Shown here one piece after another: positions 47,101 to 63,849 of a stretch of DNA of 64,000 nt. The notes beneath the pieces are model-generated. The model worked only from the letters and a program-made list of their open reading frames with translations, had not been told where the DNA came from and made no database searches. Source of the DNA: Yuukianura sp. NJ FZ-2021 (lineage: Eukaryota); NCBI GenBank assembly GCA_046563655.1, contig CM102286.1, forward strand, positions 5,084,001 to 5,148,000, written 5' to 3'. How positions within the stretch are numbered: position 1 is the stretch's first letter; every line of letters starts with the position of its first letter. The position numbers and the translations under genes were made by a program.

Positions 47101-50100
47101 ATAGATTTTAAAATTGGCGGTCCAAGAAAGCAAAGGTAGAAAGGTTGGAACGTGCGCAAGCGCAGAACCTGCTAAGTGGTAGTTTCTTCTGGAATTTTTC
47201 ACAATAATCAAGCCTTTTCCTTTTGGTTCCCACTCGTCTCTAAAATTAATTCAAAACTTTTTTTTAGAAAGCTGGAAGCCATAAAGAACACAATACTGGC
47301 ACTTTTACTTTGATGAGTTACCGAATTTCACGGTCTGGCGCATGGAATAGGAAGCAGGAGTTTCAACAAGTCAGTTTCACTTTGCTGTTCGGTACACTTC
47401 AGATGTTTGGATACACAGAGGGAGAGAAAGTTGGAGAAAACTGAAATTTTTTGAAACTCCCATAACTTTCAGAAGCAGATGAACATCAATAAGGATAATT
47501 AAAAGGAACCGAGAGAAACGTAGAAGAGGCAAAAGAGAAAGTTGCTCATTTGTTTGTTTTAATTTCAGTTTCCACTTCTTTTGGCACTGAACTACCTCTT
47601 CTCTGTTTTTAAAAAATTAATTCAATCTCGAACAAGTTCGCGTTTCCACTTAAATAATTGTTTTTCACGATGAAAATCTCTCTCCTGTCGGTTTCTTTTT
47701 AATTAAAACAGGAATCCTCCTTGGAAAAATAAAAAAAATAGAAGAACTTTTTAATTTTCTTCTCAATATATTGCATTTTAAATATTCTTGTTTTTTCCCT
47801 TTATGTTTAACCTGAAAATTTGGTTAGCGTGTAAAGGCTTTTGAAATAAACTGGAACTGAAAACTTGCCTTTCACAGATATTAGTTTTTTTTAGTTTTTA
47901 GTTTCTAATGCCTAAAGCCTCCGACGACCAGCTTTGCTTTTTTTTGGTTCGTTTTTTTGAAATAAAAAAAAAACAAATTTTTACTAATTTTAGCCCAGCG
48001 AAAACTGTACGAGCAGAAAATTAAAAAGAAAGTGGAAAATAAAACTATGCATCTGGAGAAACATTTACAAAAGAAATTTGGCGTTCTCAGATGTATTGGA
48101 TTGCGTTCTTTTTTAAATTAATTTCGCAAATATTACAAAGTGCTACCTCATTTCTCTCAAACAGTTGATCTAAGTAATTTGCGATTTTTGTTTAACTAAT
48201 GTTTAAACTGACATTATATAAAAAGCAACACCAAATTGTCACCTTGTAAAACCAGAAGCATGAAAGGCTATATACCAATCCACAGTCGATGGCAGAGAGC
48301 ATTAATTATTTGAAATGGACAGTGGTGTCCATTTTCGCGCAACTGGGAGATAGAGACAATGGTTTTGCAGCCCTATTAAACGACACTCTCGAGTCCAATC
48401 TTTTCCACACAAACTTGGCACTGATTTTGGCAAAGAACCTCATTTACGACATTTGCTAAAATACGGCGTCCCACTCCGTGGTAATTGCAGCGGTTGAAAG
48501 TTTTCCTTTTTCCATAAAACTTTTTTCTAACCCGCAGCATCCTGTGGTGGTACATTTTTTTTTGGCAAATACAAAGTTTAGTTTCCCTGAAACCTTGTTG
48601 GCAAAAAATTGTAATTGCCCGTGAAGCTTACATGAAACATGGGTTTTGCAGAATATTATGTTAGTTTCGTTGTAAGTTGTTGGGCGTTAGCTAAACTTAG
48701 TACAGCAGGGTTGACTATGATGGAGTTTAGTCGCTTCGGGAATTTGGACTGTATTGGTCAACACAAAAGCGTTCAAACGCCGCTGAAGCAATCCTTCTTC
48801 AAGCTTTACTCCTTCGTTTTTGCTTCTACTTGGATTTAATACGCCCATCAGTTTTCCCTCTCATACATTTCCAGTGCGTCCAAAAAGGACGGTAGAGACC
48901 TCTCCCATTCACTTTGTCCACAGAATAGTTACTCCCTCCGCTTTTGATTACGACGTCCAATTTCCTGCCTCAAATGGAAAATGTCTCACCAAATACGTTT
49001 CTCTTAAGAAATAAAGGAAATCCTCATTTCTCATGCATATGAGCTTAAGAGGCACCAAATTTCTTTCTCCCTGACACCAAGATTGAAATGAATTGCCCTA
49101 AATCTCCCTGGAGCCGGTAGGAATTATGGAGAAATGGAAATGGTAAAATAACAGACGTCGACCTACGATATGCTTTTCTAAAAATGTGAATAGATTCAAA
49201 TGGAATATGAAATCACTTTCTCTTATTCCATGGCTCCATAAGGCTTTAAGGGAAAAACCCTTGTTCTGGTGCACAAAATTATTGAAGAGAAATGGCGGAC
49301 AAATGGAACAGGTAACTGTGAGGTCGGAGTTATGGGAATTGAAATGGATGAATGAGTGATGGAATGACGCTGGGAAAAGAAGCCGAGCGAATTTTGAGCA
49401 GCAGTTGTTTCCCAACAGAGCTCAAAATTTCCAAAAGAAAGCAAAACTTTCCAAATTAGAGTGAAAAAAAAAATGATCACCGTTCATTTTTTCTGATCAC
49501 CGTTTCTAATTTGGAAAAAAAAAACGTAGAAGCACCTTACGTTCAGTGTTAGCTGATATTTTAAATAAATATTCCTGTAGATAATTTTTTTGAAAGACAG
49601 CTAAGAGTATTCATGGCAGAGATTGCATGTCCAGCTAGTGCTGTCATATTAATATTTCATTTTGCTAATTTTTTCTAGGCTAGTTTTAGGTGTGCCTATC
49701 AAGTCACATCATGTTAGGCTTTCAACGATGCATGTTTGCAAGTCATCCATCGTATTTAACCTAAACACGTTTAGATTCTTCGTGACATCAATTATTTTTA
49801 CGAAACTCAACCTTCAAAAACCCATTTGATCATAATCAGATAAATATTTTCTAGTATCCTTTTTTTTTTACCAACAGCGCCACACATCTGCGGCGAGAAC
49901 TCGCGAAGAATCTTTTTTCTACATTTTTTAATGCGTATCATTTGCTTGAAATATTTGTTACAAATGTTTGATCGTTTTTAGAAGTTCAAGTAATAAGCGA
50001 TGATATTTATGAAAAACAACCACCACCGTAAAAGTGAGCGACGACGGTACAAATTGCAATTTACCGTAATGTGTATAAATTTTGGCTAAAATGTTCATGT

Positions 50101-50438
50101 TTAAAATTGAGCGACAGAAAGAGTAATGTGGATCGCTTACCACAAATGGATTCATCTGCCTTGACACCGTGCTGCTTCCACTCCCCATTAGTGCAGATTA
50201 GGTTAGGGGCATCTGGGACACTGAGTCTAAAGCCCGCGTTACACTCCACCTTCGCTTCAGCATTTTCCGGGTATTTTCCAGTCACTGGATTCGGTTTTGG
50301 ATTTGGCGGAAGGATAGTTCCGCTTTTGATGGGTAGTGGAGCAGAGCATGTAGACCAAGTGGGCTCAACACTCAGACTTAACAGCAGTACAGTCACCAAT
50401 ATGCACTTCATGCTGCCACTGAAAGTGTCCATCTTCAT
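25815..50438 (-). CDS. Type I transmembrane protein with two Sushi/CCP domains, 3 coding exons, 306 aa (joined model)
   Basis: Exons 50438-50141, 28014-27739 and 26161-25815 are linked by phase-1 GT-AG introns and total 921 nt in frame. The junction reads ESIC-V-PVQCGRPPPIEHG, a typical CCP-CCP linker. Domain order is signal peptide, CCP, CCP, Ser/Thr stalk, TM helix, cytoplasmic tail. Confidence 0.7.
27739..28014 (-). CDS. Internal exon encoding the second Sushi/CCP domain
   Basis: PVQCGRPPPIEHGYY...YPFGT...GCDMGY...ITCGADGSW...QC matches the CCP consensus. Acceptor TTTTCAG| and donor GAAG|GTGAGA are both phase 1. Confidence 0.88.
31010..31228. mobile_element. Degenerate foldback/MITE-like element with termini related to the 12266-12534 element
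   Basis: Left end GGTGGCACACGCCAATG, right end CAATGACATGGAACC. Internal inverted subrepeats TTGCTCCGAAAGAATT and AATTCTTTCGGAGCAA. Flanks ATTAGTAAA and GTTAGCAAA look like a decayed 9-bp TSD. Confidence 0.7.
36296..36341 (+). repeat. Short direct repeat, TGGAGGGAGTAACTATACA x2 with 27-bp period
   Basis: Copies at 36296-36314 and 36323-36341. The 15-mer core also occurs at 10637-10651. Confidence 0.8.
50141..50438 (-). CDS. First coding exon of the Sushi/CCP membrane protein: signal peptide and first CCP domain
   Basis: MKCILVTVLLLSLSVEPTWS signal-like segment, then TCSAPLPIKSG...YPENAEAKVECNAGFRL...LICTNGEW...IC (CCP consensus C..P..I..G...C..GF.L...C..G.W...C). Donor TGTG|GTAAGC is phase 1. 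The start Met could be 50438 or either of the two in-frame Mets just downstream. Confidence 0.88.
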
Positions 50439-53400
50439 TTTCCTTTTGGTAGGTTAGTCTAGGTAAAGTTGGGTTTCTTCCACTGCCAAACAGAATTCGA
50501 GACACATCCTTAAAAACCGGCATCCAACATTCAGTTTCACTGTGTTGACTTTGTTCAAGTCTATTAGCATAGCTCTAGTCACTGGAGAGAGCAACGTCTG
50601 ATTCCTTTCAGCAATTCACCAAGCAAACACTTCCAGGGTTCGGTTTTTCTGCCTTTTGAAACTCTTTTTGAATCCAATTCTCAAGTGATCCGATTTCTAG
50701 GAAAACGAAATTTCTTGGCCAAGTCGGATAATGTTCCTGTAGAATATCATATCAAACAAAGTTTGAAAAAGGATCAAGTTCAATGCGATTCAAAAGTCAA
50801 CGGTTAGGCTAGGTTTAAGTAAAGATCACTTGACTTTATACTGGAATTCAATTCATTGTACTTGAAAGACAGAGAATGTGCTTGCAATGTAATATTACTT
50901 TTGAAAACTTTTTTTTTGAAGAAAACTGTTTATTTCTCAGGTGCTCTTCACACCAAATTGAGGTCAATAAGAATACGGAACTTCAAAAACGTTTCCAAAA
51001 AAAATTCTGAAAATCGAATTCAGTCGTTCTGACAGAATAGAAAAGCTACCGGAAAAATGATACGGCCTAATGATAAACGTATCAAAGCAAGAAAGTGTGA
51101 AAGAGAATTCCAATCGGTGTGTATTTTGATTCCAAAACTGTTTCCGATTTCTTTGTTACGAACTTATGGATTTTTCTATAAAAGATTGGAATTGCAGAAA
51201 AACAGTAAGGAAAACAGCGGTAAAAAGGAAAAGAAAGCAGTGAAAGTCAATTCAACTTTTGCCGTCTTTGGTTTTATTCTATTGTACGAAGGCAGCCAAG
51301 CGGAAAGGCGATCTTGGAAACTGAAGGCCCCTCGGAGAAAGTGAATTAAAACGAAGCTATGGCTTTCTCTTGGTGGATTCAGCACTTTCTCTGTTCTACT
51401 GGAAGTGGGTCCTTCAGTCTTTCAGAAGCCTTTTGTCTTTTGAAAGACGGATCTCATTCGTGTGAACAGAAAGATGAAGATAGTGTAGGGACATTGCCAA
51501 CACGGCATAAATCTACCTTCAGATCTTCTTTTTGGATATTTCATTTCGGAAATGAGATTTCCGCTTTTACAACCACTTCGGGTTCCTCGGGAGATCAGGA
51601 GTTGAGGAAAAGGATCAGTGTAACCTAAATTACATTTCTAGAATTAGTTTTTTGCAGTTTCTGAAAGCTAAAACCTTAGGTTGAAACCTAACCAGGGAAA
51701 TTGGAAAGTCATCGAAACATGCTGGTGCTTTCACAAATCGTAAATCTCTTGAGAGAGTTACAGAAACGAAATTGGAATTGTAAGCGTATTTTATATTATT
51801 TTGGAATTAACTTTCAGTTGTTCTAAGAAATCAATGTCTAAGCATTGAATCTGGAAATGCTTTGGAAGTACTATTAAGATTCGAAATTACGAAATATTGT
51901 GAAAGTTTGTTTTAAGAAATGAAAACTTACCGTTGTGGGTGTAATCTTTTGGTTTGCGTGTAATCCACTCTAAGTCTCAGAATGCTTTGATGTTAGTGTA
52001 CTTTAGCAATTTAAAAGTTTAGGGTAACTCCAACTTTTTGTACAAAACTTAAAGTGGCAAGGGACACTGGAATTGGAAGGGAAACCTGTTGTGCGTGTTG
52101 CGTTCTTTTGTGAAAGTACCACTTTCACTTTCAAAATTTGTCACAAACTGAAAGTAAAAAGTTCAGCAGACTATTCTCCAATGGATTATGGGTAGGGATA
52201 GACTTGTTTCTGAAGTCTGTAACACTGGTGACCTCGTGTCAACAAAAGTTTGTGGGCGTTGAAATTAATGAGTTTTCTTTGGTATGGTTTCTTCTTTTCT
52301 GGTCAACACTTTCGGCTCGAGAGCTTTTCCAGTTGAAATGATCCCGCTTTCAGCCCTTTCGGTTGGATCTTGTGAACTTCCGTTGTGTTCTGGAGACTTT
52401 GAAAATCGGTCTGACGGGTAGGACAATGTGGAGCTGAGAGTTTATAGGGCACAGAGACTGATGCTGGAGGTTTTCTGACTGGATTTCTCCAGAGTGAAAG
52501 CAAGCGGCCCTGCAAATAGTCAACCATGGAAACTCAACTGAGAGAAAGTACACAAGAGATGGAGTGGGAACGGTTGACGTTGCCACGGAATGTTTCAAAA
52601 CCAATTTTCATCGATGAAAATTCTACTACGAATGCAGGTTAGTATGATAAGGTTTTAGCAACGACTGTAAAACATATTAAATGTATTGCGGGTTGCTGTA
52701 AAATTACATGTATGGTGAAAACCGTAAGTTTAGCTAGCTAAATTCCTTAAGTACAGTAAGAGAATTTTTTTAGACGACAAAAATTCAATTACAAACATCA
52801 AAAATAACTAAACCGTTGCTTTATTTCTTTTTTTAAACTACAATAGACTACTGTCCGTAAATGATGTCATTTATTGTGAAGGTCGCGCCTTAACTTTCAC
52901 CAGAAGAAAGCAGCTGTAACTATGCGCAGACTCTTGTCTAAAACAGTAAGTTAAGCTAAATTTCGCAGAGGATGGTAGAATTTGTATATTACACGTTCAA
53001 TAAATTGATAGAAATTATGTGACAACTTTGGTTAAAGAAATATATTTTCAAATTACTAACTTGTATTAGAAACAATGGTTTCAAATTCCTAAATTATGTT
53101 TGAATTGAAAATTAACATTATATGAATGTAAAGTATACTCGGGTTTTCCTATCGTGACGTCAATGACGTGTCAATGACAAGTCACATGCTTCAAAAGTTG
53201 TAAAACGTGTGACTTTATCCATAAATCTCAAATAGATAAAAAATGAAGTACTGAAAAGCGTTAAGTGGAGATGTGAAATCGTTAAATCGTTTTGTATGTA
53301 CAATGTTGCGGTGCGACGCCTTGCTTTATCAATATGCCGGTAAAGAATACACGAGCTTAACCGAGTCCAACTGAATCCGTTCTAATTCTGTAATAATCAA

Positions 53401-53545: not shown

Positions 53546-56500
53546 ATGAAGGGTTTAAAAAAGTAAGTGTGAAATTTAATAATTATAAATAATCGGAAAA
53601 ATACAAATACCAAATCGATTATCTTTTAATTAATTTAATTAGCACTTAAATACTAATTTGCTAATTGTTGGTGATTTTTTGAAAGGAGAAATGACGGAAG
53701 TAAACTACAGGAATCAGAACTCAAAGATCTGTCGGAAGACAAGAAAAAGAAGAAGGCAGATGAAACACCGAAGCATCCTCCGGTTTCATATTTCAAACTT
53801 GTAAGAATGTGATGTGCATTTTGAATTAGAAAAACGTTTAATTTGTTCTTTTTTAAATTGTGCAACTTCTTGCAAATATTTAGTTTCGATTTGCCAAGCG
53901 TCTTGAAATTGTGCTGATGCTTGTTGGTGTGGTGGGTGCCATTGTTGGTGGGACTTGCACTCCAGTGATGATAACTTTGTTTGGAAACATCACGCAAATA
54001 TTGATTGATCATCAAGTGCAGCAGTACAATGGGTGAGTAGCACAACTCCTTTTGTATGCAAACTGGTCAAAGGTGAAGTTTGAACAATCCGAATTTGTGA
54101 GGACAGTACATCCTCGGCTGCTGATGACGAGTTTCTGAGCGAGATGGGTAGAAGTTCTTTGTACCTCGCACTTCTTGGCACTTTGGCCTTCATTTCTCTA
54201 TGGGTTGCTGTATCCTGTTTCGGAATTATTTCAAAAAACTTGGTAAACTAAGTATTCTTCTTTGTGCAAAAATTATTCATTTGCAATTCTTGTTCAGACA
54301 TGTCCAATTTCATGATTTCTGCGATTGAGGAATTTTGGAATCAAACCATATTATTTTTTCAGACCCATCGACTACGAATTAAATATTTGCAAGCTCTACT
54401 CCGTCAAAACGTTGGTTGGTTCGATACCGTCCAAGACAAAGCCTTCGTTTCCAGAATTGCTGAGTAAGTTTATTGTAAAAAAAAATGGCGGGCCCTTGGT
54501 GCAAAATTGTTTTGTAATTTGTAGAGATGCTATGAAAGTTCAAGAAGCAACCGGAGAGAAAGTTGGACTTTGCGTTTACTTCCTCACAATTGGAATCCTG
54601 TCTGTTGCTAATGCCTTTTGGCATGGGTGGAAAATGACGCTGGTCGTCCTCAGTTCTGCGCCGGCGCTTGGAATCGTCGGTGGGATAATGACAGCTCTGC
54701 AGTCCAAGCTTGTGCAGGACGAACAAACATCCTATGCAAAGGCAGGAAAAGTAGCTGAAGAGGCAATTGGAAACATACGAACTGGTTTGGCTGAAGTCTT
54801 ACAACTAAATTAAGGTCAAAGGTCAACTTTGAATGAGTTTAAATTTTGAACAGTGTATGCATTCAGTGGACAACGCAAAGAAGCGAATCGATATGAGGAA
54901 GGCCTAGAAATTGCCAGAGTGGCTGGAAAGCGGCGTGGTATAATTTCGGGCATGGCAATCGGCTTAGTTTGGTTCATCATTTATGCTAGCTACGCCCTTG
55001 CATTTTGGTATGGAACAAAACTTGTGATAGAAGAACCTGAAAATTACTCGTATTCGTCGATGTTAGTGGTATGTGGCTTATATAAATAAAAAATCGCCAT
55101 TCATATCAAAATAGTTACATATATTTTCATATTTTTTACTTAATGTTTTGTGCTAACAAAAAGTTTTCATATTTTTCTTGGGCAGGTATTTTTCAGCGTT
55201 TTCCAAGGAGTTTTCATTAGTGCGCAAGCGATGACATATTTTGAAATTTTCGCAGCAGGAAAAGGTTCAGCGGCTGGAATGTACAGTGTGATTGACAGGT
55301 AAACTGTGAAAGTCAAAGCGAAAGTGCGGATCTTAAACAAATCTGCAGAAATATTTGGAAAATTATAGTAATTTTAACAACGACTTAAACAAATTTCCGC
55401 TAATTTTCTTTTCATTATTCAGGACTCCCGAAATAGATGTGTATTCCGACAAAGGGAAGATTCCCGAAAAAAGCAGAGCAACAGGAGAAATTGAATTTCG
55501 GGATGTTCACTTCGAGTATCCGTCCAGACAAGAAGTTCAGGTTAATTCAAAACATTTTAAATGCCTCAACTGCTTTTTGAAAAAACAAGGCAAAATTTGT
55601 TTTGGCAATGCAACTTCTTCTTATTCATTCAGGTGCTACGTGGCTTTTCTTACACTGTGAAACCAGGACAAACTGTCGCAATTGTTGGAAAAAGTGGCTG
55701 TGGAAAGTCGACTGCATTGCAATTACTTCAGCGGTTCTACGACCCTTCACAGGGAGAGGTATATTCTTGCAATCTATGTTCAAAATTTTCAGAATTTAAA
55801 ACCCCTATCCTAACATTTCAAAATTTTTTCGTAGATTCTTTTAGACGGAAATGGCATTAAAGATCTCAATCTGAAATGGCTACGATCTCAAATTGGCGTT
55901 GTCAGCCAAGAACCCGTCCTATTCAACGACACAATTGCCAACAACATCAAATTTGGCAGGGAAAGCGCCTCGACACAAGAAATCGAAGATGCTGCACGTC
56001 AAGCCAATGCGCATGCGTTCATCAAAAAGTTGCCTAAGGTGTGACCGCTTTCGAAGAGGAACAAAAAACAAAGTTTACTCATAATTTTCAAAAATTTCAG
56101 CGCTACGATACAGTTGTTGGTGACCGCGGAACTCAACTAAGCGGTGGTCAGAAGCAGAGGATTGCCATTGCTAGAGCCATAGTTCGACAATGTCCGATTT
56201 TGCTTCTGGATGAAGCCACTTCAGCACTGGACACACAAAGTGAAGCCATTGTTCAAGCGGCTCTAGACCGCGCTACTATTGGTCGCACAACCCTAATAGT
56301 TGCCCATCGCCTTTCAACAATCAGAAACGCCAATGTTATCATTGTGCTTGATGAGGGAAAAGTAAGTTTCCGAATTTTAAATGCCATTTTTAAGCAATTT
56401 TTTAAGTCCTATTTTGTTAAACTCTTGAAAATTCAGATTGCTGAGTTTGGGACGCACTCTGAGCTTCTGGCCAAAGGCGGTTTATACCATGGTTTAGTAA

Positions 56501-59101
56501 CCTCTCAGTTGGCAAATGACCTTGACCTGGACAACATCTCAGCAGAAGATAACAAAGATTATGTTGACTCTATCATTAGAAGGAAAAGTATACCAGAAGA
56601 TGAAGAAACTGAGGTGTATGTTCCACCGCCCGATGAAGGAGAAATGGATGTAAGCCAATAATTGATTGTTTGCTTTCCTAAGAAAAGATTTTGAAGGTTT
56701 TGAAAATTGGCGGTTACAGGCAAAGACCTTGGCGAAGAAGGCGTCTGTTCTGCGGATGTTCAAATTGAACAAGAAAGAGTGGCCGTACATTTTGTTAGGT
56801 TGTGTCAGTGCCGTCATACAAGGTGCAATGGTCCCATTGTATTCCATTTTGTACGGAGAATTTCTGGGCGCCTTAGCAGGACCGAATCCCCAAGAAGAAG
56901 CAAATCGATATTCATTGTATTTCCTTGGAATTGGAATAATCGCTGGAAGTGCACAATTTCTTCAAGGATTCAGTTTTACAATTTCCGGAGAAGCCTTGAC
57001 TATGAGAATTCGGAAATTGTACTTTGATGCCATTTTGAGTCAGGAAATTGGTTGGTTCGACGATTCGCGCAGGAGCGTTGGCGGTCTCTGCACAAGACTT
57101 TCTGACGACGCTGCAAGTGTGGCTGGGGTAACAATTTAAACTTCATAATTTCATACTTCGTTTTTGGAAAAGTGGTGATTTTTTTTTTGCCTAGGTCACT
57201 GGAACCAGAATTGGTGTAATTTTTCAAGCTGTGTCAATTTTGACAATTTCTATTGGGATTTCGATGTACTATTCACCAAAGCTAGGCGCCGTCGCCTTAC
57301 TTTTTGCTCCCTTTATTCTGCTTGCCTCGTACTTTGGCGGATTTATCATGACGAAACAAAACGTAGGGGAGATGGCAGCACAAGAGGGATCGGCTAAGGT
57401 AGCAGTCGAATCTGTGTCTAATATTAGAACAGTGGCAAGTCTTGGAAAAGAACAATCCGTCTGTAAGGAATACAGTGGCCAACTTGAAAAATCACACAAG
57501 TAAACGTCAAAGGGCAACTGGTTTGCATAATTTTTGAAATGACCTGTAACAGTGTAACAAGTTTAAGCTTGTTTTATAGGAGCAGCAAGAAGGCTGCTTA
57601 TGTCCAGGGGTTTACAATTGGACTTGGACAAGCAGTGCCTCTTTGGGCGTATGCTACTGTCATGTACTACGGAGCTATTTTGATTGTAAAGGAGAACGAA
57701 ACGTACGACAATGTTTTCAAAGTTGCGCAAGCGCTGATTTTCGGGTCAATGATGGTGGGACAAGCACTTTCGTTTGGTAACGGAAACAAGTGAACTGTTT
57801 TAAAAATTTATATTTAAAATTGTTTTACGTATTTCAGCACCAAACTACTTCAAAGCAAAGGTTTCATCGGCCAGGATTCAAATGCTGTTGGACAGAAAGC
57901 CACTCATCGAAAGTGGAGAGGCCGGACTTCGAATAGTAAAAAACTTACCAAAACAATTCTTAAACAAAAAGAAAATGTAAAATTATAAATTACCCGGAAT
58001 TTGGTTTTTTAGAAAAGTGCTGTTGGAGATGTTGCGTTTAAAGACGTTGTGTTTAGCTACCCAACACGCCCAATGATTAAAGTGTTAAACGGACTAAGTT
58101 TTGAGGTCAAATTTGGAAAGAGTTTAGCTTTAGTTGGACATTCCGGATGTGGTAAATCCAGTTGCATCAATCTCATCCTCAGATTTTATGATCCATTAAG
58201 CGGAAAAGTTGTAAGTTTTTTTTTCTTCAAATTTGTCTTTTAAAAATTTTCTGATTTGTAGATAATTTTTGCACGGACTTTGACATTTCAGAATCTTGAT
58301 GGGATGGACATATCTCAATTACATGTGGAATCTTTGCGATCTCAAATGAGTATTGTCTCACAGGAACCGGCATGTGAGTTAGCAAATGTCATGTTTTTAG
58401 CACAACCATGTCAAATTTAAAATTCAATTTGAAAAATCTGACATGTTCTTAGTATTTGACCTCACATTGCGTGAGAACATTGCGTATGGTGACAACTCTC
58501 GAGAAGTTGACATGGCCGAAATCATCCAAGCTGCTAAAATGGCGAATGTCCACAACGTCATCTGCGCTCTGCCAGCGCAATATGAAACACGAGTAGGTGA
58601 ACTTGGATCACAGTTGAGCGGAGGTCAAAAGCAACGTGTAGCCATTGCACGAGCTCTCGTCAAAGGAGTCGACGGGCCTAAAATTCTACTTTTAGATGAA
58701 GGTACATTTAGCATTTTCAGATTCACTTTATGAAAACTGTGGAGTAACATTTTTAATTAATATAATTGGTTAGCTACTTCTGCTCTGGACATGGAAAGTG
58801 AGAAAGTTGTTCAAGATGCTCTAAACGAAGCTAGCGTTGGAAGAACAACAATAACCATTGCTCATCGGTAACATTCCATCTTTGTTCGGCTCTCTTTTAA
58901 TATTTTTTAAAAATAATTTTCACTTTAACTTCAAACCGATTATTCAAAATTTGATTGGTTCCCAGTTTGACGAGTATCCAGAATGCCGACCAAATTCTAG
59001 TACTTCAAGACAAAATCCTCGCAGAAGCCGGTACTCATGCAGAACTTATTCAGAAAAAAGGAATTTACTATCAGCTATGGAGTGTCCAAGGACATAAATA
59101 A
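53546..59101 (+). CDS. ABCB1: ABC transporter subfamily B full transporter (P-glycoprotein / multidrug resistance protein), 22 coding exons, 1264 aa
   Basis: Exons 53546-53562, 53686-53800, 53884-54032, 54107-54242, 54363-54463, 54525-54784, 54854-55068, 55186-55298, 55423-55540, 55633-55758, 55835-56038, 56101-56361, 56437-56649, 56720-57127, 57195-57499, 57580-57776, 57838-57935, 58013-58210, 58292-58373, 58453-58701, 58774-58867 and 58966-59101 join in frame (3795 nt, all GT-AG). Architecture is TMD-NBD-TMD-NBD with Walker A GKSGCGKS and GHSGCGKS, Q-loops VSQEP, signature LSGGQKQR twice, Walker [12 protein letters not shown] twice and AHRL H-loops. The symbol denotes the family, not one-to-one orthology. 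Confidence 0.97.
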
Positions 59102-60510
59102 GTCAGAATCACGCAGTCAAATTATGAAAATATTCTTGTTAGATTAATTTAAATTGTTAAATTACAAAAAAATATTTACAACTCCATCTAATACAGCGCG
59201 AATAAGTTCCTGTTTTGCTATAATTTTGCCTAAAACTCTAATGTGCACTAATGCCAGAATAATGCTTTTGATTTGACCTGGCCAGACGGCGCGATGACGC
59301 ACGTCAAATGTTGCTAAAAAAAGAAATACAATAGCAAATTAAATTTACTATATCATTGATTAGATAATCGGCGAAAAATTGATGGTGCAGAAGTAAGATT
59401 TTCTTTCGAAGTTGGAATGATAGCTTGTAAATCGCAGTTTATTTGACCTAACTAACCGTTGGCCTTGATCAGCACGATGACAGATAAATACGTAACGTTT
59501 CCTGTGTAATGTGATAAACAGTCAACATTATTTATTACAATCAACAAACAGCAACTCACCTTTTTTGTCGAATAGAATTGTACTAATTTGCAAACAACCT
59601 GTTATTCTTTTGTGCTTGCAAAAAACACCATTCGATCGTTCCGAAGAAAAATATTTTCCACGAAAACGACTGGCCTAATGCTGTTTTCTTTTATGCCCTT
59701 TTGTTTTCTTTTGCATTGTTCGTTCCAAAAGCTTTACTTGCACAGAACTAATGAATTTTTGCCTTGACTAATTACAGCCACTACTATTTTACCTACACTA
59801 AGGTAACTGAATCCGAGTTGTCCAGTCGGCAGACTTCGCCCAGCATTCCCAGTGGAAACAACAATTCCAACCACCATCTTCATCGTTCTTATTGTAAAAC
59901 AGAGCTCATATGAATCAACTTACTGTTTGTTCTTACTTCACCTAACCATTCGCTACGAATCATAATTCTGACTCCAACCTTTCTCAACGGACCGCGAAGG
60001 ATCCGTAAGACGTTCACTCGTGAAACAAACGCTTAAGAGCTATTTTTAAAGCCACAAAATTTTTTGCAGTAGCCGGCCTTCAGCGGAGTGACTCATTCGG
60101 AATCACTTTTGCGCCAGAGAGCCGGAGTCAGCGAAATAAATAAATGTGGCTTTAATTTGCTAAATAGCAAAATATCCACTTGAACCAACCCATTACCACC
60201 CATCAGCTACTACGAAGCAATACGATAGTGAACAGTGGAGTTTTCTAAAAATATTCTCTGAATTTTTCGATTTAACTAAACAAATTATCATAACTGTGCA
60301 GTTAGTGTGGTTCTGTTCATCAGTGAACCTATTGTCATTTTTTCCAGATTGTGGTATTCGTTTGGTGTTGACGCAGGTTTTCACAACGTTCAGATTTTTG
60401 TGAAGGTAATTGAGAGAAAACTTTTTGATTCGGTTTTTATAAATTCTATTCATTAGTACACAACAGAAAAATATTGATTGCCTGTTCTCCATAGGTAGCT
60501 GAAAGACAAA

Positions 60511-60771
60511 ATGTTTGGGAAAACGACGTTACCAATCATAGGCATCTTCCTAATTTTGGCACAAGCGCAAGTCGACGCTGGTCCAGCGGCGTATGGTATT
60601 TGCCAAGCCGGTTGCGCTGCAGTTGTTGTGGCATGCTATGGAGCGGCTGGAGCCGTTTTTGGAACTGTAACGGCCGGCGTTGGCGTGCCAGCAGCAGTTG
60701 TCGCATGTAATACCGCTTTCGGTACTTGTCAAGGGGCTTGTTGGGCAGCTCTCATAGCACCCACGCCTTGA
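60511..60771 (+). CDS. Small secreted Cys/Ala/Gly-rich protein (zygote-specific class V-like / fungal-type cysteine-rich family), copy 1, 86 aa
   Basis: Intronless CDS with TATAAA at 60438 and CAAAATG start context. Signal peptide ends VDA. Mature sequence GPAAYGICQAGCAAVVVACY...CNTAFGTCQGACWAALIAPTP has 6 Cys. The frame is preserved in the duplicate. The family label is from recall of similar proteins, not from a search. Confidence 0.9.
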   Translation: MFGKTTLPIIGIFLILAQAQVDAGPAAYGICQAGCAAVVVACYGAAGAVFGTVTAGVGVPAAVVACNTAFGTCQGACWAALIAPTP

Positions 60772-61581
60772 ACAAAACTTCTCAAAACGATTTGATTGTG
60801 TATAGATTGCCATTAGTGTCAATAACTGCCAATGTTATGCTTAATCTCAATAGATTCATACTTACAAAATAACTTGTCGAGTTAACGTGTTTTAATTTTT
60901 TCCTTATTAATTACGATTATCTAACTTTAAGTCAAATACGAATCAACTACTTTACTGTTTACAATCTCGACCTGCGGAATCCAATCTCAAATGACATCTT
61001 GCTTTAAATAAAAATTTGGGCAGTTTGACTTGGAAATGTTCATCAAAATCATTTTTGCATGACGGTGTTACAGCGGTATTTTGACCACCGTTTCCAGGGT
61101 ATTCGTAAGCCTAAAAGTGCTATTTTTAAAGCTTCAAAAATTTTTGCAGTAGCCGGCCTTCAACGGAGTGACTCATTCCGGATAAGTTTTGCGCCGGAGA
61201 GCCAGCCGGAGTCAGCGAAATAAATAAGTGTGGGTTTAATTTGCTAATAGCAAAATATCCACTTGAACCAAGTCATACCACCCATCAGCTACTACGAAGC
61301 ATTACGATAGTGAACAGTGGAGTTTTTTAGAAATATTCTCTGAATTTTCGATTTAACTAAACGAATTATCACAAATGTGCAGTCAGTGTTGTTCTGTTCA
61401 TCAGTGATACAACTTTTCCAGCTTGTAGTGTTCGTTTGGCGTAGGTTTTCACAACGTTCAGATTTTCCAGAAGGTATTGAATTGAGTGAAAAGTTTTTGA
61501 TCCAGCTTTTATAAATTCTATTCATAGTACACTACAGAAAAATATTCCGTGCTTTTTTCCATAAGCAGCATGAAAAACAAA

Positions 61582-61845
61582 ATGTTCCGGAAAAGGACGA
61601 TACAAATCCTAGCCATCTTCCTAGCCATTTTGGCACAAGCGCAAGTCAACGCTGGTCCAGCGGCGTATGCTATTTGCCAAGCCGGTTGCGCTGCAGTTGT
61701 TGTGGCGTGCTACGCAGCGGCTGGATTTGTTTTTGGAACTGTTACGGCCGGCGTCGGCGTACCACCAGCGCTAATCGCATGTAATACCGCTTTCGGTGCT
61801 TGTCAAGCGGCTTGTTGGGCAGCTCTCATAGCACCCACGCCTTGA
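61582..61845 (+). CDS. Small secreted Cys/Ala/Gly-rich protein, copy 2, 87 aa
   Basis: Paralogue of 60511-60771. The ATG at 61582 is positionally equivalent to that of copy 1 (an in-frame ATG also exists at 61570). All 6 Cys and the APTP C-terminus are conserved. Confidence 0.9.
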   Translation: MFRKRTIQILAIFLAILAQAQVNAGPAAYAICQAGCAAVVVACYAAAGFVFGTVTAGVGVPPALIACNTAFGACQAACWAALIAPTP

Positions 61846-63849
61846 ACAACACTTCCTCAAAACGAATTTATTGTGTATAGTTTGCCATTAGTGTCAATAA
61901 CTGTGAATGTTATGCTTTTAATCTCAATAGATTCCTACTTACAAAGTTACTTGTCGAGTTAACGTGTCTTAATTTTTCCCTTATTAATTACGATTAACTA
62001 ACTATAAGTAAAATACAAATCAACTACATTACTGTTTACAATCCAATCACGACCTGAGGAATTCAATCTCAAATGACATCTTGTTTTAAATAAAAATTTT
62101 TGGGCAGTTTGACTTGGAAATGTTCACTAGATTCCAAATTTTTTCTCCATAAATAAGTATAACTGGCGACACTACAGTGCATTAATTTGAAAGTGAATTG
62201 ATCGAAGAATGTCAACAGTATAAACGATAGTGCGAGGATCGAGAGGGAGGATTTCTCAGAGTCGATTTAGTGAAAGCTCTTGTTCTTAATCCTAACCCAA
62301 GGCTGCATAGTAGAACTTGAAATGAGCTTTAATAATTTTTGGTATCATGCTTCACAAAACAACCTCCGTCTGTCTCTTATTCTTAATTGCAAATTGCAAA
62401 ACACAAACAGAAATGCTTCCCGGGCACAACGGCACTCCTAAACTTCAAAAAAGTATCCCGCTCCTCCAGAAGAAAGAAAGAAATTGCATCAAAGAGGCTT
62501 TCTCCTCCGCTAAAACCATAGCGTTGGAAGAAATTAAGATAAATGTGGATTTTATATTAAAGGATGCTTAGCACAAATCCAAATTATAATAACCCTTCGT
62601 TCATCTAACAAACTACGAGCATCAACCAATGCGCTTTCGAATTTCTTTCCCGGGAGAGAAAACAGAGAGGAGCAGAGAAAGTGGATTTTCTCATCCACAT
62701 CTTTTTCCAGCTAAGGACTTCACCTGATATTGATCAAATAATGGAAATTGATGAAGGGACGACTGGGACTTGAGTCGTGCTTTCACTGTTTCCATTAGAA
62801 CCTGCACAAATAAGGTCACATACGGAAGCAGGAAAAACAGAAGAGTTTGAATCGGCACGAATAGTCCCTAACTTCTTGATTCAGTTTGAACATTACAAGA
62901 AATACGTAGCCATAAGTTCAAACAGAGGTCATTATAATTTAATATAACTAAAAACAACTTTTTGAGTTTAAAAAAAATGAACGCAAGAGTATAAAAATTG
63001 GCCCAAAGAGTCACCTTTTTCAAAGTAATAAACGTTTTGAAAAAAAAAAAACTTTCTCTTCCTTTTGAAAATACAATACTTTCCCTACATACTCACACTA
63101 TTAAAGGAAGTTCAAAAACTTCTAAAACTTTTGCAAAATTCAGAAGGTGTTAGCACAAACATTCCCTTCCACCTTAACGGGAAATAATATTGCTCTGGGA
63201 AATAGTGTAATTTGTTTTGTGTTTCTTTACCTTAGATTCACTTACCTGTCTTATTTCCAGTGCTAAATGACGGAACAAATGTCTGATTTTCTTTGAGTAA
63301 AAAGAAATACATTAGCAGAGGGCTTACAACTAGTAACAAATGGCGGAAATCAAACCTAATTGAACGAGTGGACTGTAATTCAATTCCTCATGTCTTTTGT
63401 TAGGAGAAAGCACAAAGGAATTTAAGTAGAATAGACAAAGTGGAGCAGATGACGCGTACGTTTTGGTATTTTATTTTTTTGTATATTATTACGTTTACTA
63501 TTCTTACTTGCTTACGTTAGGTTTTATAAGTTTCTTGTAGTACAATGGAAAAGGAAGCTAGAATTACACCTAAATTGGTTAAACGACTGAACAAATAAGT
63601 AACGTGGTTTAGCAAGGCGTAATCTAACTGTAGTCACGGAAGTTGGGGTAATGTGTTGTACTTGTCGATTTAACATTTTTACATTACAAAAATTTTAATA
63701 ATAATTAGCGAATGTGTTAATCAAAGTGCCAATTTATATCAAACAATTAACGCAACGAACGATTTTAATCTTGCATTATAAGAAAGTAATTGAATTTAGT
63801 TTTTAGAATTTATTGGCAGCGTCGTGATTGATTTGTTTGTAGTGCGTAT

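What the first reader, a model, noticed from the sequence alone, without database searches (positions are those of the whole stretch)
60511..61845. Tandem pair of secreted, completely uncharged peptides with mirror-symmetric cysteines, of a family recalled mainly from fungi, oomycetes and algae
Seen: after a 23-24 aa signal peptide, the 63-aa mature region has no D, E, K, R or H, is dominated by Ala/Gly/Val, and has Cys spacing C-x3-C-x6-C-x23-C-x6-C-x3-C. This palindromic pattern suggests a helical hairpin stapled by three nested disulfides with a hydrophobic GTVTAGVGVP loop. The coding regions are intronless beside a 22-exon gene. Knowledge (recall, unverified): near-identical GPxxYGICQxGC...APTP proteins are annotated as zygote-specific class V or cysteine-rich proteins in fungi, oomycetes and Chlamydomonas, with unknown function. 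Inference: a horizontally acquired, recently amplified membrane-active or surface-active (antimicrobial, hydrophobin-like or fusogenic) peptide system not characterised in animals.
Basis: partly seen in the sequence, partly recalled or inferred. Interest (0 to 1): 0.78.

Follow-up and report, generated by a model that had tools for sequence, protein, structure and literature searches.

The report
Uncharged disulfide hairpin peptide gene pair
An arthropod genome carries a tandem pair of small secreted, oily, charge-free peptides from a little-studied family that is nearly unchanged between fungi, algae and scattered small animals and seems to have moved between them; they most likely act on membranes or other oily surfaces, but their job is untested.

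Summary
Two intact ORFs (60511-60771, 61582-61845) lie in a 1.08-kb tandem duplication, 91% identical. Each encodes a signal-like leader and a 63-residue charge-free peptide with C-x3-C-x6-C-x23-C-x6-C-x3-C. A third, older copy sits on another contig. The host is an arthropod and the locus is embedded in its DNA.

The family is large (672 clusters), essentially eukaryotic (2 of 185,579 prokaryote species, on tiny contigs), and matched no Pfam model. It is not mainly non-animal: cyst nematodes, Ascaris, bdelloids, a mite, Daphnia and chironomids carry it. Mature peptides are 60-94% identical across kingdoms. Animal monophyly is rejected (AU p=2e-5), but so is fungal monophyly, on 63 columns. 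Repeated transfer is likely, not proven.

AlphaFold gives a confident helical hairpin (pLDDT 93.5) with one conserved polar-aromatic face and greasy small-residue faces. Best reading: a membrane-inserting, self-associating defence peptide (0.4). Rivals: surface coat (0.27), ligand binding or stress signal (0.2). Function is untested.

The parts
60035..61042 (+). Tandem duplication unit 1 (upstream region, gene, downstream region)
   Evidence: local alignment with unit 2, 902 of 990 aligned bases identical; repeat families D1-D8; upstream region found only twice in the genome search
61115..62126 (+). Tandem duplication unit 2
60511..60771 (+). Copy 1 coding sequence, 86 aa, intronless
60511..60579 (+). 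Copy 1 signal-peptide-like leader, 23 aa, ending VDA
   Evidence: by eye; junction pattern shared by the family; no predictor run
60580..60768 (+). Copy 1 mature 63-aa uncharged hairpin: helices 2-23 and 36-59, Cys 8/12/19/43/50/54
61582..61845 (+). Copy 2 coding sequence, 87 aa from the ATG that matches copy 1 (alternative in-frame ATG at 61570)
61654..61842 (+). Copy 2 mature 63-aa uncharged hairpin, 55 of 63 residues identical to copy 1
60406..60494 (+). Candidate 89-nt 5'-UTR intron of copy 1 (GT..AG ending 16 nt before the ATG); unproven
   Evidence: seen in the sequence; a splice-site model from 20 ABCB introns did not single it out
61474..61568 (+). Candidate 5'-UTR intron of copy 2 (acceptor ending 61565 or 61568); unproven
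61007..61012 (+). AATAAA about 240 nt after the copy 1 stop; kept at 62089 in copy 2; possible poly(A) signal
   Evidence: common hexamer in AT-rich DNA, weak
53546..59101 (+). Neighbouring host ABCB (P-glycoprotein-like) gene, about 22 exons; context only, no functional link shown
   Evidence: ends read by eye

Best explanation
These are working genes for a secreted 63-residue antiparallel helical hairpin, locked by three nested disulfides (8-54, 12-50, 19-43) after the leader is removed. One face carries the large conserved polar and aromatic residues (Y5, Q9, Y20, N44 and positions 13, 47, 51); the rest is flat Ala/Gly/Val. The likeliest mode of action: the peptide partitions into a lipid membrane, probably loop first (GxxFGTVTAG), and self-associates through or around the polar face, so that it disturbs or opens the membrane of microbes the animal lives among or eats. 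An unchanging lipid target plus self-contacts would explain why the peptide barely changes across kingdoms, and a stand-alone secreted product would explain why it survives transfer between lineages. Shown: intact genes, host integration, constraint, family range, predicted fold. Inferred: disulfide pairing, oligomer, membrane insertion, defensive role, horizontal origin.
For: AlphaFold2 with 122 sequences: mean pLDDT 93.5, helices 2-23 and 36-59, each long enough to cross a bilayer. The three Cys pairs all sum to 62, and 9 of the 25 top covarying pairs sum to 62+/-4 against 14.7% expected (p=0.007, not corrected for kinship). Idealised wheel on 237 ungapped homologues: polar face mean hydropathy 0.23 and volume 135, the two other faces 1.4-1.5 and 106-109. 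157 of 237 homologues have no charged residue and 62 have one. GRAVY 1.2-1.3. Constraint: copy 1 against copy 3 dN 0.27, dS 0.8, Fisher p=0.0006. Mature identity to a lichen ascomycete 83% and to a cyst nematode 83%; Daphnia magna to the fungus Benniella 94%, with unrelated leaders. No shared modifying enzyme or partner among 79 neighbouring ORFs from 24 locus groups. Tandem copies recur (adjacent locus tags in Heterodera and Earliella). The tree puts the window copies with ascomycetes and cyst nematodes (95/90) and Daphnia and chironomids with Mucoromycota and protists (95/95).
Against: No activity or localisation data for any member were found. Most membrane-active defence peptides are cationic and evolve fast (general knowledge); this family is neutral and very conserved. 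The one commonly tolerated charge is at position 49 (48 of 237 rows, mostly Lys; position 53 in 12), mid-helix on the small-residue face, which fits poorly with that face being buried in lipid. Best 19-residue hydropathy is 1.9-2.1 but whole-helix means are only 1.3-1.6. A Daphnia transcript bearing the family's name rises in acute hypoxia (PMC9548574, Table 8), a stress rather than infection context, and I could not check that transcript's sequence. Fungi, oomycetes and algae make it too, so a toxin model needs self-protection. Selection between copies 1 and 2 alone is not significant (p=0.08).
Confidence: 0.4

Rival explanations
1. A surface-active coat protein. The hairpin lies flat and assembles into a water-repellent film on cuticle, egg, cyst or spore walls, working like a hydrophobin without being one.
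For: Two-faced anatomy with Lys tolerated on one mid-helix stripe, as expected for a peptide lying at an interface. Carriers include groups with resting or desiccation-proof stages: bdelloids, Daphnia, cyst nematodes, a mite, oomycetes, green algae (the life-history link is my knowledge). The family name comes from a Chlamydomonas gene expressed in zygotes, when the wall is built (recalled; paper not held).
Against: Coat proteins such as hydrophobins keep little but their cysteines (general knowledge), whereas non-Cys positions here are 80-100% conserved (Y20, G24, F27, G28, T29, N44, G48). Only three copies were found in the genome.
Confidence: 0.27
2. A secreted ligand-binding or signalling peptide. 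Two or more hairpins close their polar-aromatic faces around a sterol, lipid or metal, or present that face to a receptor during stress or development.
For: Conservation of Tyr, Gln and Asn on one face and histone-like cross-kingdom identity suit an unchanging ligand. Induction of the same-named Daphnia transcript in acute hypoxia.
Against: A single hairpin has no cavity. A peptide that needs a receptor should not transfer well between kingdoms, and no partner gene travels with it.
Confidence: 0.2
3. On origin only: an ancient eukaryotic gene with old paralogues, inherited vertically and lost many times, not transferred.
For: Present in animals, fungi, green algae, stramenopiles and a foraminiferan. 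Fungal monophyly is rejected as firmly as animal monophyly (p=0.0002), which old paralogy or convergence in a short, low-complexity peptide would also give. 24 of 60 inner branches are unresolved.
Against: Among the named hits listed (120 of 216; 120 of 514; cluster members) animals are limited to small soil and water invertebrates, with no vertebrate, mollusc, Drosophila or Caenorhabditis row; unlisted hits were not seen. Starred branches force at least 4 changes of the animal label. Joining the window copies with Daphnia and chironomids is rejected (p=0.0013).
Confidence: 0.3
4. Contamination, mis-join or dead copies.
For: Intronless coding regions; the candidate 5'-UTR introns were not singled out by my splice model.
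Against: 15.5-Mb contig, no N in the window, even GC; intron-rich animal genes on both sides; arthropod cuticle genes on the same contig; GC3 of 0.39-0.47; a third diverged copy under purifying selection on another 10-Mb contig.
Confidence: 0.04

Closest known systems
[quoted passage not shown]
   Same: Same family by sequence: 70% mature identity to the Gonium pectorale member labelled 'Zygote-specific protein'; same leader, six mirror Cys, PTP end (188 of 282); tandem copies.
   Different: Function unknown; no Pfam match. The window copies fall in the CQAGC group with ascomycetes and cyst nematodes, not in the CQTGCN group of algae, Daphnia and chironomids. The C. reinhardtii protein and its paper were not seen; details about it are recalled.
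Glycocins (sublancin, glycocin F) of bacteria (recalled)
   Same: Helix-loop-helix with nested C-x6-C ... C-x6-C disulfides and a Gly-rich loop.
   Different: Three disulfides and longer helices here, Sec-type leader, no glycosyltransferase or transporter neighbour, eukaryotic range, no sequence match in the PDB.
Plant alpha-hairpinins (recalled)
   Same: Secreted helical hairpin stapled by C-x3-C ... C-x3-C; defence role.
   Different: Those are short, charged, variable and cut from repeat precursors; this is 63 aa, neutral, six Cys and highly conserved.
Fungal hydrophobins
   Same: Small, secreted, Cys-rich, hydrophobic; one Ganoderma homologue carries an automatic 'Hydrophobin' label.
   Different: Six Cys without CC doublets, and a helical hairpin instead of a beta-barrel core.
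Fungus- or oomycete-related gene families in centipede venom (unchar05, unchar16, GEOTX02; PMC7864903)
   Same: Precedent for small secreted proteins shared patchily between fungi or oomycetes and soil arthropods including springtails and mites (passages read).
   Different: Different families: none of four family motifs nor 'zygote' occurs in the 11 supplementary files searched, and the unchar05 profile has 326 positions.

Membership tests
Zygote-specific class V / cysteine-rich family | Sequence homology to database members bearing the name | tested here: met
   Hits labelled 'Zygote-specific protein' from Clohesyomyces, Pseudocercospora, Amylocarpus, Gonium, Daphnia sinensis, Trametes; labels are automatic
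Zygote-specific class V / cysteine-rich family | Leader plus six mirror-symmetric cysteines in about 86 aa | tested here: met
   (309 of 370 homologues hold the full pattern); that this defines the Chlamydomonas protein is recalled
Zygote-specific class V / cysteine-rich family | Direct match to the C. reinhardtii class V protein | not tested
   not among the listed hits; paper not held
Zygote-specific class V / cysteine-rich family | Zygote-stage expression | not testable with these tools
   no expression data for this genome were available
Hydrophobins | Eight cysteines with two CC doublets | tested here: not met
   six Cys, no doublet
Hydrophobins | Beta-barrel core | tested here: not met
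   model is a two-helix hairpin, pLDDT 93.5
Hydrophobins | Self-assembly into an amphipathic film | not testable with these tools
   needs a bench assay
Glycocins | Nested C-x6-C ... C-x6-C in a helix-loop-helix (recalled) | tested here: met
   inner four Cys 12/19/43/50
Glycocins | Gene cluster with glycosyltransferase and peptidase-containing exporter; double-glycine leader | tested here: not met
   no such neighbour in 79 ORFs from 24 locus groups; leader is signal-peptide-like. The adjacent ABCB is an ordinary animal P-glycoprotein
Glycocins | Structural likeness to solved glycocins | tested here: inconclusive
   fold searches gave only generic hairpins
Plant alpha-hairpinins | Four Cys as C-x3-C-xn-C-x3-C in a charged peptide (recalled) | tested here: not met
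   six Cys and no charge
Twin CX9C (CHCH) proteins | CX9C spacing, no secretory leader (recalled) | tested here: not met
   spacing x3 and x6, leader present
Horizontally acquired gene | Integrated in host chromosome-scale DNA | tested here: met
Horizontally acquired gene | Animal monophyly rejected | tested here: met
   AU p=0.001 (LG+G4) and 2.3e-5 (mixture model); 63 columns
Horizontally acquired gene | Nested with support inside one donor clade | tested here: inconclusive
   sits in an unresolved 95/90 group of ascomycetes and cyst nematodes; fungi themselves not monophyletic

The most novel reading that the evidence does not exclude
The family is an undescribed class of neutral, disulfide-locked helical-hairpin pore formers or lipid binders that is almost invariant across eukaryotes and has jumped repeatedly from fungi and protists into small animals (this arthropod, cyst nematodes, bdelloids, mites, Daphnia, chironomids) as a stand-alone weapon against microbes.
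Probability: 0.22. Interest if true: 0.8.

Novelty: new member of a known kind. Interest (0 to 1): 0.48.

Why it matters
The gene pair itself is one more instance of an already labelled family, so the locus alone is modest. The family is the interesting part: a secreted 63-residue peptide with up to 94% identity between a crustacean and a fungus, no matching Pfam model, no solved relative by sequence, and a tree that follows no species tree. Secreted Cys-rich peptides rarely stay this constant. It is small enough to synthesise, so its function can be tested at once. A charge-free membrane-active scaffold would be a new kind of defence peptide or biosurfactant, and a case of repeated eukaryote-to-animal transfer of one small gene.

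Tried and rejected
Expression: no RNA holder listed; this is no evidence either way, and no reads could be laid. Oligomer: the four-copy complex job gave no verdict (score 0.01, mark 0.32). Family libraries: Pfam 0 families for both ORFs; across 122 members only weak scattered matches, at most 5 of 122; NCBIfam at most 1 of 47 per family. Atlas: only unnamed 'cysteine-rich' clusters and no usable named hit. PDB by profile: one chance match, thanatin E=0.44. Fold searches: nothing at E<=0.001 in PDB or viral models; best Z 6.7, generic hairpins, no glycocin or hairpinin among the 50 rows shown. A natural two-repeat homologue folded alone was uninformative (pLDDT 57.8). 5'-UTR introns: GT..AG pairs end 15-16 nt before the ATG in copies 1 and 3, but none of the three copies passed my splice-score thresholds; left as candidates. 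Prokaryotic origin: 2 matches among 185,579 species, on contigs of 3,337 and 437 bases that look non-bacterial or broken; treated as contamination. Viral carriage: 1 contig; four near-full-length relatives end just after the polymerase ORF, so probably a chimeric join. Centipede unchar05: rejected. Conserved gene neighbourhood: none; WDR55 in 2 and F-box in 2 of 24 groups (79 of 93 ORFs scanned, the rest mostly overlapping the family gene or one another). One profile hit, a 1011-aa repeat protein (P0243), lacks the pattern and was dropped as false. Fusogen: no membrane anchor or ectodomain, and the name-giving gene acts after gamete fusion (recalled). Ice-binding by the Ala-rich face: considered, not tested; the wide range of carriers gives no reason for it. 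Literature: ten searches found the family name only in one Daphnia table (article and preprint). Supplement searches of PMC13389597, PMC11258130, PMC5490193 and PMC4987106 found nothing (3, 4, 0 and 1 files not searched, and bioRxiv supplements are closed, so mentions there may be missed). Most subscription papers are not held.

Full report
Observation. The two ORFs are present as described: 60511-60771 (86 aa) and 61570/61582-61845 (91/87 aa). After a 23-24 residue leader both give a 63-residue peptide with no D, E, K, R or H and cysteines at 8, 12, 19, 43, 50 and 54; they differ at 8 of 63 positions. The pattern appears twice in the window's six frames and in 0 of 100 shuffles, and no shuffle gave a charge-free run above 48 residues. 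The genes lie in a head-to-tail duplication, 60035-61042 and 61115-62126, with 902 of 990 aligned bases identical. Synonymous divergence in the mature region is 0.17 and the flanks differ by 7-8%, so the duplication is fairly recent but not an assembly echo.

Host and integration. The window lies on a 15.5-Mb contig of a 98.7-Mb genome, has no N and an even GC content. The genome gave 41 matches to the arthropod cuticle motif PF00379, several on the same contig, and only 2 borderline odorant-receptor matches. The best named full-length ABCB match among 120 was a crustacean. The host is therefore an arthropod. Earlier notes of this scan call it a springtail with many foreign genes; I did not confirm the order. 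A third copy lies at G000:C1:7513973-7514152; a search with a Daphnia homologue found the same three and no more (counts are lower bounds). Copy 3 has a seventh Cys in the loop and one Lys, and shows purifying selection against copy 1 (dN 0.27, dS 0.8, p=0.0006). Between copies 1 and 2 the same test is not significant (p=0.08). All three copies have a GT..AG stretch of host-like intron length just before the ATG, but a model built from 20 ABCB introns did not single these out, so they remain candidates.

Family and range. The precursor found 216 relatives among 274 candidates, 120 listed; a divergent profile found 514 among 8000 scored, 120 listed; the full profile search found 672 clusters at 50% identity. 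Named members are ascomycetes, basidiomycetes, Mucoromycota, oomycetes, the green alga Gonium and a foraminiferan, and also animals: Heterodera, Globodera, Ascaris, Rotaria, Adineta, the mite Halotydeus, four Daphnia species, Clunio and Chironomus. In prokaryotes only 2 of 185,579 species matched, on tiny contigs. Of 370 homologues 309 hold the full Cys pattern; of 237 ungapped mature rows 157 have no charge and 62 have one, chiefly at position 49. Conservation is extreme: copy 1 is 83% identical to a lichen ascomycete and to a cyst nematode, and Daphnia magna is 94% identical to the fungus Benniella, while leaders share nothing obvious. A Daphnia protein and four fungal genera share one 90% cluster. 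Five of 78 metagenome loci hold two to four copies. No neighbour is shared beyond WDR55 and F-box genes in two groups each, so this is a stand-alone gene.

Origin. I built trees from 63 rows (three window-genome copies and 60 named homologues; left out: unnamed rows, the mis-predicted Ascaris model, seven further polypore rows and two of three Bremia repeats) on 63 columns. Under the mixture model the three copies fall in a 95/90 group with 13 ascomycetes and 9 cyst-nematode rows; Daphnia and chironomids fall in a 95/95 group with Mucoromycota, oomycetes, Gonium and other protists; starred branches force at least 4 changes of the animal label. AU tests reject one animal clade (p=0.001; 2.3e-5) and a clade of the window copies with Daphnia and chironomids (p=0.0013), but also one fungal clade (p=0.0002). 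The groups are taxonomic, but the tests were run after I had seen the trees, the alignment is short and low in complexity, and 24 of 60 inner branches are open. Repeated transfer into small invertebrates is the better reading (about 0.7); old paralogy with loss is not excluded, and no donor can be named.

Structure. AlphaFold2 with 122 sequences gives helices 2-23 and 36-59 joined by a loop with a short beta turn, mean pLDDT 93.5. An idealised wheel puts Y5, Q9, 13, V16, Y20, I40, N44, 47, 51 and 55 on one face (mean hydropathy 0.23, larger residues) and small hydrophobic residues on the others (1.4-1.5); the cross-helix covarying pairs 13-47, 13-51, 20-44, 15-49 and 18-46 each join residues of the same face. 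The loop GxxFGTVTAG is 80-100% conserved at its fixed positions.

How it most likely works. A rigid, neutral hairpin with bilayer-length helices, a conserved polar stripe and no partner gene most simply acts on lipids and on copies of itself. I commit to a secreted, membrane-inserting, self-associating peptide used against microbes (0.4). Secretion, disulfides, oligomer, insertion and target are all inferred. Against it: no cationic charge, slow evolution, Lys tolerated mid-helix on the greasy face, and producers that must resist their own peptide. A surface-coat role (0.27) fits that Lys stripe and the resting stages of many carriers. [quoted passage not shown]

Comparison with known systems. 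The genes belong to the database family named after the Chlamydomonas class V zygote gene (homology shown to Gonium and other labelled members; the Chlamydomonas protein and paper were not seen). They are not hydrophobins, alpha-hairpinins or twin-CX9C proteins by cysteine pattern, and share only the inner C-x6-C nesting with glycocins (those definitions are recalled). The centipede venom families of PMC7864903 (outline and passages read; 11 supplements searched) are a precedent for fungus-arthropod sharing but are other families. Other papers opened, by passage search only and without useful content: PMC11808170, PMC9511220, PMC7874021, PMC4889651; by supplement search only: PMC13389597, PMC11258130, PMC5490193, PMC4987106. 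Ten full-text searches found no functional or evolutionary study of the family in the library held.

Verdict. Real, intact, integrated genes; a new member of a labelled but uncharacterised eukaryotic family. Interest 0.48.

Noticed in passing
G000:C1:7513973-7514152 (L003:1498-1755, minus strand): Third, older family copy with a seventh cysteine in the loop, one lysine and a one-residue shorter spacer; sits between intron-bearing host genes.
   Followed up: partly
L006:43-2697: Viral-collection contig with a 759-aa RNA-virus polymerase-like ORF followed by a fungal-type family gene; four near-full-length relatives end just after the polymerase ORF, so probably a chimeric assembly.
   Followed up: yes
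proteins P0427, P0493-P0499: Daphnia proteins and Mortierellomycota/Mucoromycota proteins share one 90% identity cluster; a candidate recent fungus-to-crustacean transfer or extreme constraint.
   Followed up: partly
window:60089 and 61169: TGACTCA (AP-1-like site, label recalled) kept in both upstream regions about 420 nt before the ATG; 6 such sites in the window, so weak.
   Followed up: no
window:4976-7271: Fatty acid desaturase gene (PF00487) whose first exon looks like a cytochrome b5 domain with HPGG, i.e. a front-end type desaturase; origin not examined.
   Followed up: no
window:27674-28021 and 50061-50453: Two minus-strand Sushi-domain ORFs.
   Followed up: no
proteins P0247, P0322, P0390: Family members with two or three repeats in one chain; P0247 and P0322 are acidic, more soluble-looking variants. 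P0390 (Bremia) repeats the leader, so it is probably merged tandem genes.
   Followed up: partly
L004:443-703: A family gene on a 3.3-kb contig filed under a Dysgonomonas MAG, with no bacterial-looking genes; probably eukaryotic contamination.
   Followed up: partly
L085:6975-9604: Intron-bearing adenosine deaminase (ADAR-like, PF02137) gene downstream of the window.
   Followed up: no
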